DNA of 64,000 bases, taken from assembly GCF_056746865.1 (NCBI RefSeq), contig NZ_CM163382.1, one strand, 5' to 3'. A program made the position numbers. Of this stretch, positions 30,001 to 42,000 are shown piece after piece; position 1 is the stretch's first letter, and the number at the start of each line of letters is the position of its first letter.

Positions 30001-33000
30001 TGATTTCACCACTGAAACTTTCCGGGATGAGACGATTACCTGCCGCCAGTCCTTTAAGAGCGGCGTTCAGTGCCTTACGCGGGGCATTCTGCTCCAGAAA
30101 TGCATATGCCAGATGAGCGTGTATATCAATAAAGTCAGGCTCCTGTTGAGCAAGGCGTCTGAGTTTGTTGATATAACCCGTCTCACTGATTTCATCAGTG
30201 TCGTATGCATCAAGCACTTCTTCAAACTCCCCCAGTAATGGGCCAAACCAGGTATCCGGAAATACGAAACGACCCTGGTTATTGTTCACTTCAAAGCGGG
30301 TGATGCTGCCAACTTACTGATTTAGTGTATGATGGTGTTTTTGAGGTGCTCCAGTGGCTTCTGTTTCTATCAGCTGTCCCTCCTGTTCAGCTACTGACGG
30401 GGTGGTGCGTAACGGCAAAAGCACCGCCGGACATCAGCGCTATCTCTGCTCTCACTGCCGTAAAACATGGCAACTGCAGTTCACTTACACCGCTTCTCAA
30501 CTCGGTACGCACCAGAAAATCATTGATATGGCCATGAATGGCGTTGGATGCCGGGCAACAGCCCGCATTATGGGCGTTGGCCTCAACACGATTTTACGTC
30601 ACTTAAAAAACTCAGGCCGCAGTCGGTAACCTCGCGCATACAGCCGGGCAGTGACGTCATCGTCTGCGCGGAAATGGACGAACAGTGGGGCTATGTCGGG
30701 GCTAAATCGCGCCAGTTCGCCCGGATGTTGGGACTTGAACCGAAGAACACGGCGGTGCGGAGTCCGGAGAGTAACGGCATAGCAGAGAGCTTCGTGAAAA
30801 CGATAAAGCGTGATTACATCAGTATCATGCCCAAACCAGACGGGTTAATGGCAGCAAAGAACCTTGCAGAGGCGTTCGAGCATTATAACGAATGGCATCC
30901 GCATAGTGCACTGGGTTATCGCTCGCCACGGGAATATCTACGGCAGCGGGCCAGTAATGGGTTAAGTGATAACAGGTGTCTGGAAATATAGGGGCAAATC
31001 CACTGCATGACAAAGTCATCGGGCATTATCTGAACATAAAACACTATCAATAAGTTGGAGTCATTACCGACGAAGCGATAGCGATAATGACTGAAAGCGG
31101 AAAAATAAAAACAAATTGAATAATGTGTTTGGTAATGAATTTATCGGGGGGAATTGGGCATATCTACCGCTTACGTCGAGCCGCTCACACCCGGTCAATG
31201 ACCTGACAATCTCCCGGCAAGTCCCGACGTCGGGACTTGCGCCCCTGACACCGAAAAATAGCAGGAACCCGCTCGCTACGGGTCCTCAGCTCAGTGCAAA
31301 CCTGACTCAGCTCCTGCATTGCATCCCCGAAATTACCACACTCAGTACTTCATCACCTGCCACCAATACCCGTGTCAGTCCTTCGTGACCTGACGCAATT
31401 ACCCGACTCAGAGCTTCAGAGTCAGCCGCCGGTACCTGCCCGGTGCTCGCCCCTGCGCAACCAAGATAAATCGACCATTGGCAGACTGCGATCATTCGTA
31501 TGCATCGCTGATGACGCGCCCGAAAAACGCGTTAATGTAAGTGTGGAACAATACTTTGTTACTATGCATCAAAAAAAGTATTTGAAACGTAATCGGGCAC
31601 CGTAACGATCATCGGTAATGTCACAATTACTATATCTACAGTTACTATCCAGAATTGAGTAATAAGCCCCGAGGTAAATATTAAAGTTCTCCATATCCAT
31701 CACATTAGCAAACTGATAAGATGCATGAATGGTGTGAATGTTGTATATTCCTTCACCATCAATCCAGCAACCATTATTACACACGACACCACTAAATTCA
31801 TCAATCTTATTATGTGCGTAGATATAACCCAGTTCGAAACGTTTCCACAGAGCATTAATACTGGCAGTGAAATCTTTCTCATTACTGGCATCCAAATAGG
31901 CGGTATTAAGAGTAACCACGATGCCATTTTCCGGATCTGTTTTCAGACCGTTCCATGTCATGCTAATACCATAACCGGAACGATTGGACTGATCGACAAA
32001 ATTCCCCTTATTATCGGTATAGCCATAAGCATTTTTTACCACGTTCGCTTCCATCGCTGCGGAGACTGTGAATTCTTCCGTTGGCGACCAGGCAATTACC
32101 GGGCGCAGATAAGCGACATTTTTCTGCTGCTCCATATATCGTCCATGATAATTACCGTTATTATATAAAGATGTTCCGTCTTCAAGTAACGTGTTTAACT
32201 CAAAATACCAGTTATCGAGTTGTTTACTGATGAGGAAATTACCACCAGCGTCAGAACGACCGCGTCCCTCTTTCATCATATAGATATAACCACGGCCATC
32301 AGCATAAATATCATTAGCTGTATTACCGGAATACTCAATGAAAGTATCCTGATTTAGAGGGAACATATCGTAAGCTTCAAAACGACCGACTTTCACTTTC
32401 CACTCGTCATCTTTTCCAAAAAAGAATAATGCATCATCAATATTCACTGAACCGTGCATATCCGCCAGTGGTTGTGCTGAAAATCCAGCGAAATAACCAT
32501 TATCAAGCTTACGGGTACCGTCAAAACCTAATAGAATACGGCCATTAAGGTCCCACCGTTCATTCACTGACTCACTGTTCGCCCCGGAACTTATCATTAC
32601 TAACTGACCGGGTTTACTGGCAGCATCTATATTAAACTCCACATCACCATAAAACTTCAAATCATTGTAACCAGAGAGCAGAAAACCTGGAGAAGATGTT
32701 TTTTCTTTTGTTGACTCAACTACTGCATAGCTGTTAGCATCTTTTTTATTCTGCTCTGAACTAATTTGACGTATTTCAGAATGTTGTTCTATATCAAAAC
32801 TCTTTAACATTCTTTCTGCTTTTTCCGCCCTTTTTTCTGCAGCTTCCAGGCGTTCTTCCAGCAATGCCATTCTTTGTTCAAGCGTTAGCCCCCCTGTTTT
32901 TGCTGCACACGCATTGTATTCCAGTAATAAAAAAAGAGATAAACCCAAAAGTAACTTATTCATTTTACCCCCTTAAATAAAAACAAATGTGGGTACTCTT

Positions 33001-39000: not shown

Positions 39001-42000
39001 TGAGTCTTCTTGCCTGAGTATTAGGACGGTAACCGCGTCGACGAGCTTCAGCTTCCACCCGTGCACGGGTGGAAGCTGACACATCTGCATAGCCTCCAAG
39101 AGCCCGACTGACAGTGGTGACAGAAACTCCGAGTGCAGTGGCAATCGCCTTAAGTGACATATTATCTCCTGCTAATTATTATAGTAGACCGTCCCCCTAA
39201 ATCTCCAGACAACCAATATCACTTATTGTAAGTTAACGGAATCCCTCTGATCTGTAAGATCAGAGGGAAAGGTTATTGATTGTGAGAATAATTTCAGGAC
39301 AAAGTGTAATTAACTCTCCTGGATGGAAAGTGAATCAATGTAGTCAGCGTACCATTGCATCATTTCACGGCGACCATCGAGATACAGGGCATGATTATAG
39401 GTACCCCTGATGGAATTTTTATCCACATGAGCTAACTGCATTTCAATCCAGGCAGAATTAAAGCCCTGTTCGTGCAGAATGGTACTCATGGTGTGACGAA
39501 AACCATGACCGGTTGCCCTGCCATCGTAACCGATACGTTTGAGCACCATATTGATGCTGGCTTCGCTCATTGGCTTGTTGATATCACAACGTCCCGGGAA
39601 AACCAGCCGGTATTGTCCGGAGAAAGTTTTGAGCTGCAGCAGAATGTCAGTGGCCTGTCGTGACAGTGGTACGACATGTTTACGTCGCATTTTCATGCGG
39701 CTTTCAGGGATTGTCCACAGGGCATTATCAAAATCAATTTCTGACCATTCAGCGGACCGTAGTTCAATCGTTCTGAGGCCTGTCAGAAGCAGCAGATTTG
39801 TCGCCATGCGGGTAACAGGACTGCCATGATATTCAGCGAGCTTCCGGAGAAAAACAGGGAGCTCATCTGCTCTCAGGTGGGGGAAATGTGCAGCTTTTGG
39901 CGCCGCCAGCGTACTGGTCAGTTCAGATGCCGGATTGACAGTGGCTCGTCCGGTGGCGATGGCATAACGAAAAATCTGATTACAGTATTGACGCACCTTA
40001 CGAAGTTTTTCCAGCGAGCCACGTTTTTCTATGCGGCGCAGAATTTCCAGCATTTCCAGCGGGAGGATATCAGTAACGCTTCGTTTGCCCAGATACGGGA
40101 AAATATCTTTATCCAGAGCCTCCAGTACGCTTCTGGCGTAACTTTCAGACCATGACAAAGATTTATGCTGATGCCATTCCGTAGCAAGGGCATGGAACGT
40201 ATTGGTGGCAGAGATTTTCTGAGTGAGTTTTTCCTTTCGCTTCTTTTCGCCCGGGTCGCCACCTTCGGAGATAATTTTTCGGGCATCGTCGCGTTTGATT
40301 CTGGCTTCAGCAAGGGAGACGTCGGGATAGACGCCGAGGGCCAGTTTTTTCTCTTTTCCTGCTATCCGGTATTTAAGCCGCCAGTAGCGGGCACCCGTGG
40401 TTTTTACCAGCAGATATAAACCACGTTCGTCAGAGAGTTTATAGTCTTTTTCTTTAGGTCTGGCTGTTTCGACCTGTCTGGCTGTAAGTGCCATATGGGG
40501 GCTCCTGAAACTGACTGAACACAATGAGCCCCCACCGGTGCCCCCAATGAACGCTTGATTGAGAGAGAGTTCAGTAGAGTTCGGTGGAGTTCAGGATGTT
40601 CAGATTGCTTGTAACGATGTGATTATACTTGAGTTTCGTGGAGTTCGGGAGATGAATCTGGAAGTGAAAGTGGTGCCCGGACTCGGAATCGAACCAAGGA
40701 CACGGGGATTTTCAATCCCCTGCTCTACCGACTGAGCTATCCGGGCAACGGGGCGCATTAAACCGTAATCTGCACATCTCGTCAACCTAATTTCAGTAAA
40801 AGCGATTCAACTGCTTAAGATTGCGGCAAATCGCTTCTTTTCTGTGTTTCTGTCAGGTCAGTGCGCCACCCTGGCGGCAGCGAGCGAAGCGCAGGATATC
40901 TTCTGCCAGCCGATGTGCGGTGTCGACATCCGCCTGGCTACGATTCACCAGCATTCGGCTTAAACAGCCTTCCAGCACCAGTTCCATCTGCTTTGCTACC
41001 ATCGCCGGATCGTCAACTTCCAGCGTGGTTAACAGTTCGTGGGTGAAATCGTAGGCCGCGCTTTTTTGCTGATCGGCCAGTTGATGAATAGGGTGGCCAG
41101 GATCGGGATAAAACGTACAGGCAGCGATAAACAGACAGCCCGGATAGCGGTTGTTTTTAACGCACTCCGATAACGCCTGATAACGTGCCAGCAGCTTTTG
41201 TTCGGCGGTTTGCGTTTCGTCCAGCATCAGCTGACGACGCCAGACATCTATCTGTTGGCTAAGATAACGCAGCGCATCGTAGAGGATTGCCTCTTTGTCT
41301 GGCCAGAAACGGCGCAGCTCGTCCAGTGGATAATCCACACGTTCAGCAACCATCTCCAGCGTGGTGTTGGCAATCCCTTGTAATTCTAATAATTTCAGGG
41401 CTTCTCCCAGTACATCTTCACGTTGCACGCTATTTTCCTCCGTCTTTCCCACTGCAAGTGTCGTTCACGGTTGGCGATCGCGCAAATGTGCGCTGAAGGT
41501 TTCAGCATCCATAAAGCCCGTGACGCGTGCTTGTGGATGCTCCTGGCCTTGTCCGTCAAAAAAGAGAATTGTCGGTAGGCCAAGGACATTAAGATGCTTT
41601 AACAGCGCCACATCTTGTGCGTCGTTGGCAGTGACGTTGGCCTGAAGTAATACCGTGTCTGCTAACGCTTTTTGCACCTGCGGGTCGCTGAAGGTGTATT
41701 TCTCAAACTCTTTACAGGCGACGCACCAGTCGGCATAGAGATCTAACATCACCGGTTTGCCTTTGGCTTCAACGAGCGCCTGATTTAACTCATCTACCGT
41801 TTTGATTTGTGTAAAGTTGAGATGCGTCTGAGTTTGCGCGGTATGCGTCGCACCAAATGCCCAATCCTGAAGTGGGCGCACGCTAACTAATGCCGCTGCC
41901 AGCAGGATTATTTGCACCACGCGCATCCAGCCGCGTTTGGCCTGTAGGCTGGTGATAAAGGCCCAGCCAAAGAATGCGACACCAAGCGCCGACCACAAGC

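What the first reader, a model, noticed from the sequence alone, without database searches (positions are those of the whole stretch)
31569..39160. Complete raffinose utilisation cluster (rafR-rafA-rafB-rafD-rafY) integrated in the chromosome next to the island integrase
All five genes are intact and co-oriented: LacI-type repressor, GH36 alpha-galactosidase, LacY-type permease, GH32 hydrolase and glycoporin. To my knowledge the raf operon was first described on a conjugative plasmid; here it sits in the integrase-proximal arm of a pheU island bracketed by IS material, suggesting plasmid-to-chromosome capture.
Basis: partly seen in the sequence, partly recalled or inferred. Interest (0 to 1): 0.45.

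Follow-up and report, generated by a model that had tools for sequence, protein, structure and literature searches.

The report
Chromosomal raffinose operon on pheU island
An intact copy of the well-known E. coli raffinose-utilisation operon sits in the chromosome beside the integrase of a tRNA-Phe (pheU) island; this arrangement is common in public genomes, and the plasmid copies look derived from such an island, not the reverse.

Summary
Five intact, co-oriented minus-strand genes (rafR, rafA, rafB, rafD, rafY) lie at 31569-39160. Next come a full-length P4-type integrase (39310-40494) and tRNA-Phe (40671-40746). The right flank is yjdC/dsbD/cutA/dcuA/aspA/groESL, so this is chromosomal pheU.

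It is the known raf system. It is 98.9% identical to IncF-plasmid copies, and the RafR operators and catalytic motifs are present.

It is not rare. The rafR-int-pheU junction occurs in 102 of 5,426 complete E. coli genomes and the same module at pheV in 190. At least 58 chromosomes carry the 9.7-kb module at 100% identity.

"Plasmid-to-chromosome capture" is not supported for this copy. IS remnants lie only on the rafY side. On about 145 plasmids, homology runs through rafR into the 3' 760 bp of this same integrase gene and stops at an IS2. No plasmid has the whole integrase. Chromosomes that did capture the plasmid version keep that IS2-truncated integrase. The IncF raf segment therefore looks like a fragment of a sister tRNA-Phe island. 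The deeper origin is unresolved.

This is ordinary biology with a modest evolutionary twist.

The parts
30298..31068 (.). IS scar at the rafY-distal border. It consists of an IS1 fragment (30298-30715), the last 293 bp of IS2 (30710-31002) and a 66-bp IS1 end (31003-31068). It joins the raf/int module to the rest of the island.
   Evidence: blastn against IS1 and IS2 copies on pIP1206. Homology to a raf-less selC island stops exactly at 30298. The scar is shared by the window-type raf islands examined.
31069..31568 (-). Non-coding spacer downstream of rafY. About 31376-31568 is shared with IncF raf plasmids at 79-84% identity. A terminator-like hairpin lies at 31265-31285.
31569..32963 (-). 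rafY, outer-membrane glycoporin (464 aa, signal-peptide-like N-terminus)
   Evidence: PF16966 Porin_8/RafY, E 3.5e-148. 4 substitutions relative to pIP1206 RafY.
32964..33157 (-). AT-rich rafD-rafY intergenic region. Some lineage-2 plasmids carry an extra 927-bp sugar-kinase gene here.
33158..34588 (-). rafD, GH32 sucrose hydrolase (invertase), 476 aa
   Evidence: PF00251 and PF08244; TIGR01322 460 bits, above its cut-off. Motifs WMNDPNG35, RDP159, ECP214.
34588..35865 (-). rafB, LacY-family raffinose/H+ symporter, 425 aa
   Evidence: PF01306, E 3e-209; TIGR00882 678 bits. The start follows the annotation of 100% identical genomes.
35928..38054 (-). rafA, GH36 alpha-galactosidase, 708 aa
   Evidence: PF16875, PF02065 and PF16874. 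Motifs DDGW329, KWD439, GGG486.
38093..38127 (-). rafA control region. It holds palindrome O2 CCGAAACGTTTCGG (38093-38106), a -35-like TTGATA (38108-38113) and palindrome O1 CCGAAACGTTTTGG (38114-38127).
   Evidence: Read from the sequence. The 95-bp rafR-rafA gap is 100% identical to that of pIP1206. Two adjacent raf operators are reported in the literature (refs 45-47 of PMC13056197).
38150..39160 (-). rafR, LacI-family repressor, 336 aa
   Evidence: PF00356 and PF00532. Residues 1-190, including the HTH, are identical to pIP1206 RafR.
39178..39207 (-). Promoter-like site for rafR (TGGAGA-18-TATAAT, 10 of 12 matches). It is preceded by a 10-bp inverted repeat at 39243-39267, just after the integrase stop codon.
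   Evidence: consensus match only
39310..40494 (-). P4-type tyrosine integrase of the island, 394 aa, full length
   Evidence: Arm-DNA-bind_3, Phage_int_M and Phage_integrase domains. R241, H331xxR334, H358 and Y368 are present. Plasmids retain only residues 136-394.
40495..40670 (-). Integrase-proximal island arm (attL side). It is nearly invariant in pheU, pheV and tandem-island contexts.
   Evidence: Alignment A1
40671..40746 (-). tRNA-Phe gene pheU; its 3' end is the island junction
   Evidence: ARAGORN. Identity to a pheV island drops from 100% to 81% just past the 5' end of the tRNA, from 40747.

Best explanation
Window 31569-39160 is an intact copy of the classical raf regulon.

Inferred mechanism, from established knowledge of the family:
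- RafY lets raffinose cross the outer membrane.
- RafB imports it with protons.
- RafA (GH36) splits it into galactose and sucrose.
- RafD (GH32) splits sucrose into glucose and fructose.
- RafR represses rafABD by binding two palindromic operators that flank the -35 box, and is released by melibiose or raffinose.

Shown here: the cluster is cargo at the integrase-proximal end of a mosaic genomic island inserted at the 3' end of the chromosomal tRNA-Phe gene pheU.

Inferred from comparative data: it arrived as part of a P4-type-integrase island that targets the identical 3' ends of pheU and pheV, not by IS-mediated capture from a plasmid. The raf segment on IncF multiresistance plasmids is itself a fragment of a sister island. 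That fragment runs from rafY to rafR plus the 3' two-thirds of the integrase gene, cut by IS2.
For: Identity and intactness. Operators and the 100% conserved control region.

Chromosomal pheU context.

Same module at both tRNA-Phe genes:
- The pheU junction is in 102 genomes and the pheV junction in 190.
- The window is 100% identical to a pheV island over 30299-40746 apart from one difference in the IS scar, with the break just past the tRNA, from 40747.
- One 29.4-kb island is 99.97% identical at pheV in one strain and pheU in another.
- At least 58 chromosomes hold the 9,678-bp module at 100.0% identity.

Canonical att junctions:
- Behind an ICE end, a 51-nt partial tRNA-Phe repeat precedes the integrase.
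- Behind a CP4-like island tail, a 22-nt repeat precedes it.
- A compact relative of about 14.9 kb ends in a 21/23 repeat of the tRNA 3' end.

Direction of transfer:
- Plasmid homology spans 31439-40069 and ends at IS2 inside the integrase gene, in all 12 sampled lineage-1 plasmids.
- The plasmid-type RafR allele sits next to the truncated integrase in all ten places shown, even on two chromosome-sized contigs.
- The window-type allele is always next to a full integrase.
Against: - No growth or expression data exist, so function is inferred from sequence.
- No repeat of the tRNA-Phe 3' end lies within the window. The far end of this island is unseen.
- The window-type raf islands whose rafY-distal flank was examined carry an IS1/IS2 scar next to rafY, so IS events did shape the module.
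- Plasmid and island alleles differ by about 1.2%: raf genes are 99.0-99.5% identical, the integrase remnant 97.9% and the rafR-int spacer 94%.
- No complete E. coli chromosome carries the plasmid-type integrase allele; the best match is 98.9%. The donor island of the plasmid lineage has not been found.
- A second plasmid lineage is about 94% identical, sits on K88/ETEC and IncK plasmids, and has no integrase remnant. The ultimate origin of raf is therefore open.
Confidence: 0.8

Rival explanations
1. The raf genes were captured from a conjugative plasmid into a pre-existing pheU island by IS-mediated transposition or recombination.
For: - raf was first characterised on plasmids.
- An IS1/IS2 scar lies 500 bp from rafY.
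- IS1 also flanks rafY on plasmids.
- Plasmid-type segments have demonstrably entered chromosomes elsewhere (L078, L083).
Against: - There is no IS between rafR and the integrase.
- The plasmid copy contains a truncated piece of this island's integrase rather than the island containing plasmid DNA.
- Genuine captures keep the junction between IS2 and the truncated integrase, which the window lacks.
- No near-identical plasmid source exists; apart from 2 unexamined records at 99% or more, the best plasmid matches are 98.9%, whereas dozens of chromosomes are 100% identical.
Confidence: 0.1
2. Both the E. coli islands and the plasmids acquired raf independently from a third source. This would be another enterobacterial species in which int-raf, or raf alone, is native. 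Neither would then derive from the other.
For: - Island and plasmid alleles differ by about 1.2%, and no E. coli chromosome has the plasmid-type integrase allele.
- A third raf lineage at about 94% identity exists on other plasmids.
Against: - A scan of one genome per species (100,044 species) with RafY found no true rafRABDY cluster outside E. coli. The best RafY relatives were 72-79% identical and lacked RafA and RafR neighbours.
- The plasmid remnant is still a tRNA-island-type integrase, so an island stage is needed in any case.
Confidence: 0.15
3. The cluster is a silent or decaying remnant that no longer confers raffinose use.
For: Some relatives are disrupted. There is an IS3 in rafA in HB-Coli0, IS66/IS21 insertions in CDF6, and only 165 bp of rafR left in strain A30.
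Against: - In the window all five ORFs are full length with catalytic motifs.
- The control region is identical to that of plasmids whose RafR (pIP1206, AM886293) was taken as the wild-type sequence in experimental work.
- 100% conservation across at least 58 genomes argues against decay.
Confidence: 0.05

Closest known systems
Plasmid-borne raf operon (rafRABD plus rafY) of pRSD2 and of IncF plasmids such as pIP1206
   Same: - Same five genes, order and orientation.
- 98.9% nucleotide identity to the IncF version.
- Identical rafR-rafA control region with two palindromic operators.
- Same protein lengths.
   Different: - The replicon and flanks differ. Here the cluster is chromosomal, abutting a full-length integrase and pheU.
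- On IncF plasmids the integrase is truncated by IS2 and the other side ends at IS1.
- pRSD2 itself could not be compared, because neither its sequence nor the original papers were available.
CTnscr94, a sucrose-utilisation conjugative element that integrates into tRNA-Phe genes (cited in PMC4458695, PMC11251922)
   Same: Both are horizontally acquired sugar-catabolism cargo carried by an element that inserts into a tRNA-Phe gene. The raf island is found at both pheU and pheV.
   Different: - CTnscr94 is a roughly 100-kb self-transmissible ICE carrying a PTS-type scr regulon (size and regulon type are from my own knowledge).
- No conjugation module is present in the 40.7 kb of island in the window. 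Only a mobI-like remnant is annotated in the collinear relative.
- The cargo here is the non-PTS raf system.
CP4-type (P4-integrase) cryptic islands of E. coli, with an antirestriction/RadC/CbeA-CbtA/DUF4942 tail
   Same: - P4-type integrase next to the tRNA 3' end.
- A short att repeat of the tRNA 3' end.
- A compact relative (L102) consists of int, raf, this conserved tail and the att repeat.
- Tandem arrays with other such islands occur.
   Different: In the window the tail is not visible. The body (2205-30298) is instead 99.9% identical to a selC-island body with a different integrase, joined through the IS scar.
Chromosomal csc sucrose regulon at the argW hotspot (PMC11251922)
   Same: Both are strain-variable non-PTS sugar regulons (LacY-family permease, GH32 invertase, LacI-type repressor) located at a tRNA-linked chromosomal hotspot.
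   Different: The csc regulon lacks an alpha-galactosidase and a porin, sits at a different tRNA, and has no adjacent integrase reported in that paper.

Membership tests
raf regulon (rafR-rafA-rafB-rafD-rafY) | Five co-oriented genes in the order R-A-B-D-Y, with LacI-type, GH36, LacY-type, GH32 and RafY-porin products | tested here: met
raf regulon (rafR-rafA-rafB-rafD-rafY) | Close sequence identity to characterised plasmid raf clusters | tested here: met
   98.9% over 7.9 kb to IncF plasmids including pIP1206, whose RafR (AM886293) was taken as the wild-type sequence in experimental work. pRSD2 itself was not available.
raf regulon (rafR-rafA-rafB-rafD-rafY) | Two adjacent RafR operator palindromes at the rafA promoter | tested here: met
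   CCGAAACGTTTTGG and CCGAAACGTTTCGG flank TTGATA at 38093-38127. The published operator sequences could not be read, so identity to them rests on the 100% match to the plasmid control region.
raf regulon (rafR-rafA-rafB-rafD-rafY) | Catalytic motifs of GH32 and GH36 are intact | tested here: met
raf regulon (rafR-rafA-rafB-rafD-rafY) | Confers melibiose- or raffinose-inducible growth on raffinose | not testable with these tools
   Requires culture work
tRNA-integrated genomic island with P4-type tyrosine integrase | Full-length integrase with catalytic R..HxxR..H..Y next to the 3' end of a tRNA gene | tested here: met
   The NCBIfam PRK09692 domain model scores 309 bits, below its cut-off of 434, so membership rests on the Pfam domains.
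tRNA-integrated genomic island with P4-type tyrosine integrase | Direct repeat of the tRNA 3' end at the far border | tested here: inconclusive
   None is found in the window, with up to 3 mismatches allowed, so the far end lies beyond base 1. It is present in the compact relative L102 as a 21/23 match and at tandem junctions.
tRNA-integrated genomic island with P4-type tyrosine integrase | Occupies alternative identical attachment sites (pheU and pheV) | tested here: met
tRNA-integrated genomic island with P4-type tyrosine integrase | Excision and integration are catalysed by the integrase | not testable with these tools
   Needs attP/attB PCR or genetics
Integrative conjugative element (CTnscr94-like) | Relaxase, coupling protein and type IV secretion genes within the element | tested here: not met
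   None is found among ORFs of 150 aa or more in window 1-40670, nor in the annotation of the collinear relative. Only a mobI-like gene is annotated. The part of the island beyond the window is unseen.
IS-bracketed capture from a plasmid (composite-transposon-like) | IS copies on both sides of the captured segment | tested here: not met
   An IS scar lies only at 30298-31068. The rafR side continues directly into the integrase and tRNA-Phe.
IS-bracketed capture from a plasmid (composite-transposon-like) | Carries the plasmid-lineage hallmark: a junction between IS2 and the truncated integrase at the position equivalent to window 40069 | tested here: not met
   The window has an intact integrase. 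The hallmark is present in genuine chromosomal captures L078 and L083.

The most novel reading that the evidence does not exclude
The tRNA-Phe island is the evolutionary source of the 'plasmid-borne' raf operon on IncF multiresistance plasmids. It is also still an active integrative element that moves between pheU, pheV and tandem att sites. In this way it spreads a diet-adaptive trait (use of soybean raffinose-family sugars) through poultry, livestock and human E. coli.
Probability: 0.3. Interest if true: 0.4.

Novelty: already known. Interest (0 to 1): 0.22.

Why it matters
Raffinose-family sugars are abundant in soybean-based feed. Two recent association studies flag raf genes as chicken-associated in E. 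coli while still calling the operon plasmid-borne or not locating it (PMC12815263, PMC12987596).

In complete genomes the operon is more often chromosomal, at pheU or pheV (about 292 junctions), than plasmid-borne. The module is 100% identical across many hosts. These facts change how its spread should be modelled: as island transfer and clonal inheritance rather than only plasmid traffic.

The truncated integrase on plasmids gives a simple marker that separates island-type from plasmid-type copies. Beyond that, the system is a textbook catabolic operon.

Tried and rejected
1. PGAP names the chromosomal RafR 'substrate-binding domain-containing protein', which suggested a lost DNA-binding domain. 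I rejected this. The HTH is present (Pfam LacI) and residues 1-190 are identical to the plasmid RafR, so it is a naming quirk.

2. I looked for a donor species with a RafY-seeded scan of one genome per species. It found no true raf cluster. There were only 50-79% RafY relatives, some in permease-invertase-porin clusters.

3. I looked for a chromosome with the plasmid-type integrase allele, using a chimeric query (plasmid truncated integrase plus window integrase 5' end plus tRNA). The best hit was 98.9%, against 98.5% for the window type. No donor was found.

4. I looked for an att repeat inside the window and found none.

5. I looked for plasmid remnants next to raf. Only a roughly 190-bp non-coding stretch (31345-31542) resembles sequence on some IncI/K plasmids at 87-90% identity, beside an IS66. 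This is not backbone DNA.

6. The idea that int-raf alone is a self-contained mini-element is not supported. The identical block extends into the IS scar, and no att repeat follows rafY. The compact relative is a deletion derivative that shares the scar.

7. Literature searches for raf at pheU, pheV or tRNA-Phe found nothing relevant. The original J Bacteriol papers are not held.

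
Full report
**Observation**

Five ORFs lie on the minus strand at 31569-32963, 33158-34588, 34588-35931, 35928-38054 and 38150-39160. Their products match the following families.
- RafY-type glycoporin (PF16966, E 3.5e-148).
- GH32 invertase (PF00251 and PF08244; TIGR01322 at 460 bits).
- LacY-family symporter (PF01306, E 3e-209).
- GH36 alpha-galactosidase (PF16875, PF02065 and PF16874).
- LacI-family regulator (PF00356 and PF00532).

The mechanical rafB ORF starts at a GTG. The 425-aa ATG start at 35865 is the one annotated in genomes that are 100% identical.

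Each protein has the same length as its homologue on plasmid pIP1206 and differs by 3-7 residues. RafD has WMNDPNG, RDP and ECP. RafA has DDGW, KWD and GGG.

The 95-bp rafR-rafA gap contains two palindromes, CCGAAACGTTTTGG and CCGAAACGTTTCGG, flanking TTGATA. It is identical to the plasmid version. This fits the two adjacent raf operators described in the literature (refs 45-47 in PMC13056197).

**Context**

A 394-aa tyrosine integrase lies at 39310-40494. It has Arm-DNA-bind_3, Phage_int_M and Phage_integrase domains, and R241, H331xxR334, H358 and Y368 are present. tRNA-Phe lies at 40671-40746 with its 3' end facing the integrase.

The next genes are DicD/YjdC, DsbD and DcuA equivalogs. Window 39034-54442 is collinear with the pheU, yjdC, dsbD, cutA, dcuA, aspA, fxsA, yjeH, groSL, yjeI, yjeJ, epmB, efp stretch of an E. 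coli chromosome.

No repeat of the tRNA 3' end occurs in the window. The island is therefore longer than 40.7 kb or has lost its far border.

**How common it is**

Among 5,426 complete E. coli genomes:
- the raf cluster is covered at 80% or more in 459;
- the rafR-int-pheU-yjdC/dsbD junction is present in 102;
- the equivalent rafR-int-pheV-yqgA junction is present in 190;
- one strain (APEC17) has both junctions.

At least 58 chromosomes hold window 31069-40746 (9,678 bp) at 100.0% identity in one piece. Their hosts include humans, chickens, cattle, sheep, dogs, pigs, mink and gulls, and some came from water.

The window and a pheV island (strain 104) are identical from 30299 to 40746, apart from one difference in the IS scar. 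Identity drops to 81% just past the 5' end of the tRNA, from 40747. One whole island is 99.97% identical over 29.4 kb at pheV in strain 104 and at pheU in another strain.

The exact window-type RafR protein is indexed in 7,916 blocks of public assemblies, against 3,990 for the plasmid-type allele.

**Relation to plasmids**

Two plasmid lineages exist.

Lineage 1 comprises about 145 plasmids, mostly IncF, in E. coli with some in Klebsiella.
- They match the window at 98.8% from 31439 to 40069 with the same end points in all 12 sampled records.
- That span runs through rafR and the 149-bp spacer into the 3' 760 bp of the integrase gene.
- There the plasmid sequence switches to IS2, and on the other side an IS1 lies 351 bp from rafY.
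- The plasmid remnant encodes integrase residues 136-394 at 96.9% amino-acid identity.
- No plasmid covers the 5' part of the integrase or the tRNA.

Lineage 2 is about 94% identical and is found on porcine ETEC fimbrial plasmids and an IncK2/Z plasmid. It shares only rafY-rafR (window 31564-39173) and has no integrase remnant. The IncK example has an extra 927-bp kinase gene between rafD and rafY.

**Direct test of the capture idea**

All ten places shown for the plasmid-type RafR allele carry the truncated integrase, preceded by IS2 (by an IS1 fragment and a partial IS2 in L083). Two of them are on chromosome-sized contigs:
- L078, on complete chromosome CP168269.1;
- L083, beside kduI/kduD with an IS1 fragment.

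Both show the same junction between IS2 and the truncated integrase, at the position equivalent to window 40069. These are real plasmid-type segments that entered chromosomes, and they keep the plasmid hallmark. The window does not have it.

Conversely, the window-type RafR allele is always next to a full 394-aa integrase. Its contexts are:
- pheV;
- pheU;
- tandem arrays behind the ParA/DnaB end of an ICE, with a 51-nt partial tRNA-Phe repeat;
- tandem arrays behind a CP4-like island tail, with a 22-nt repeat.

A compact relative of about 14.9 kb (L102) consists of int, raf, part of the IS scar, an antirestriction/RadC/CbeA-CbtA/DUF4942/ParDE tail, and a 21/23 repeat of the tRNA 3' end followed by a terminator.

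These are the signatures of site-specific integration at tRNA-Phe. CTnscr94 and ICEEc2 are published precedents for elements integrated into tRNA-Phe genes (PMC4458695).

**Limits on the direction argument**

- Plasmid and island alleles differ by about 1.2%. The differences are uneven: raf genes are 99.0-99.5% identical, the integrase remnant 97.9% and the rafR-int spacer 94%.
- A chimeric query designed to rank chromosomes by similarity to the plasmid integrase allele found nothing better than 98.9%. The actual donor island is unsampled.
- A scan of one genome per species found no true raf cluster outside E. coli.
- All window-type islands whose rafY-distal flank was examined share the IS1/IS2 scar next to rafY. 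IS-mediated rearrangement did shape the rafY-distal side.
- Lineage 2 plasmids show no island trace.

I therefore regard 'this copy is not a capture from a plasmid' as well supported. 'The IncF copy derives from a sister island' is likely. The ultimate origin of raf is open.

**Mosaic island**

Window 2205-30298 is 99.9-100% collinear, apart from two extra IS copies, with an island at selC (tRNA-Sec) in another strain. That island has its own integrase (62% amino-acid identity) and no raf. Homology stops exactly where the IS1 fragment begins. The pheU island in the window is thus a selC-type body joined through an IS scar to the raf/int/pheU module.

**Comparison with what is known, and novelty**

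The system is the known raf regulon. It passes every sequence-level membership test I could apply, and the phenotype is untested.

The island passes the integrase, tRNA and alternative-site tests. The far-end repeat is unseen in the window. It fails the ICE test for the part visible. It also fails both tests for an IS-bracketed plasmid capture.

I found no paper that places raf at pheU or pheV. Two recent studies report raf genes as chicken-associated without describing the location.

The arrangement is present and auto-annotated in hundreds of public genomes, so I rate it as already known biology with a modest new evolutionary reading. Interest is 0.22.

Noticed in passing
window 2205-30298 (compare L073 6504-31971): The island body is 99.9-100% collinear with an island at selC (tRNA-Sec) in E. 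coli ApSLC23. That island has a different integrase (62% amino-acid identity) and no raf. The shared body holds type I R-M, Kiwa, RhuM, nanXY, two PEtN-transferase paralogues, a Tia-like outer-membrane protein and a TPR protein. The same cargo block therefore sits at two different tRNA sites, joined here to the raf module at an IS1 fragment.
   Followed up: partly
window 9705-11015 and 13364-14675: Two direct copies of a 1.31-kb IS3-family (IS1203-like) element are absent from the collinear relative. One cuts the 3' end of hsdR (leaving a 973-aa ORF at 7019-9940) and the other cuts the RhuM-like gene. Together they bracket kwaA (11568-12122) and kwaB (12122-12964), in a composite-transposon-like arrangement around a Kiwa defence system.
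   Followed up: partly
window 24576-25749 vs 27721-28894: An internal 1.17-kb duplication at 91.7% identity lies between two phosphoethanolamine-transferase paralogues (ORFs 24455-25678 and 27408-28910). All NCBIfam EptA/CptA/MCR models score far below their cut-offs, so these are not mcr genes.
   Followed up: no
L004 (NZ_CP134667.1) 8671-9597: On an IncK2/Z plasmid of the roughly 94% raf lineage, a 927-bp gene annotated 'aminoimidazole riboside kinase' (a sugar-kinase family) sits between rafD and rafY. The window has only a 194-bp AT-rich gap at that position. This may be an ancestral fructokinase gene lost in the other lineages, or an insertion.
   Followed up: no
L074 (NZ_CP028745.1, strain A30) 13959-14123: The same integrase sits at pheU with only the first 165 bp of rafR left, cut by IS66, so raf was lost secondarily. 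This integrase type sits at tRNA-Phe in about 510 complete genomes, against about 292 with raf.
   Followed up: partly
L003 (NZ_CM142673.1) 39248-47906: In a human blood isolate the pheU raf island also carries an ISCR2-associated floR, tet(A), aph(6)-Id, aph(3'')-Ib and sul2 resistance block. It also carries pap remnants and a thymidylate-synthase / thymine-hypermodification gene pair.
   Followed up: no
L078 (CP168269.1) and L083 (VDAJ01000001.1): Plasmid-type raf segments, still carrying the IS2-truncated integrase, are inserted in chromosome-sized contigs at non-tRNA sites (L083 lies next to kduI/kduD with an IS1 fragment). Plasmid-to-chromosome capture of raf does occur, but it looks different from the window.
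   Followed up: partly
window 38150-39160 and identical genomes: PGAP names identical-length RafR alleles inconsistently: 'substrate-binding domain-containing protein' for WP_000053331 and 'LacI family DNA-binding transcriptional regulator' for WP_000053332. The N-terminal HTH is identical in both.
   Followed up: yes
window 31345-31542: A non-coding stretch of about 190 bp downstream of rafY is 87-90% identical to sequence on raf-less IncI/K plasmids such as pRK1 of E. coli W, where it lies beside an IS66. Its nature is unknown.
   Followed up: partly
L089 and L090 (CP087290.1): One chromosome carries two copies of the int-raf module. One is at pheU. The other lies behind the ParA/DnaB end of an ICE, with a 51-nt partial tRNA-Phe repeat. 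APEC17 likewise has copies at both pheU and pheV.
   Followed up: partly
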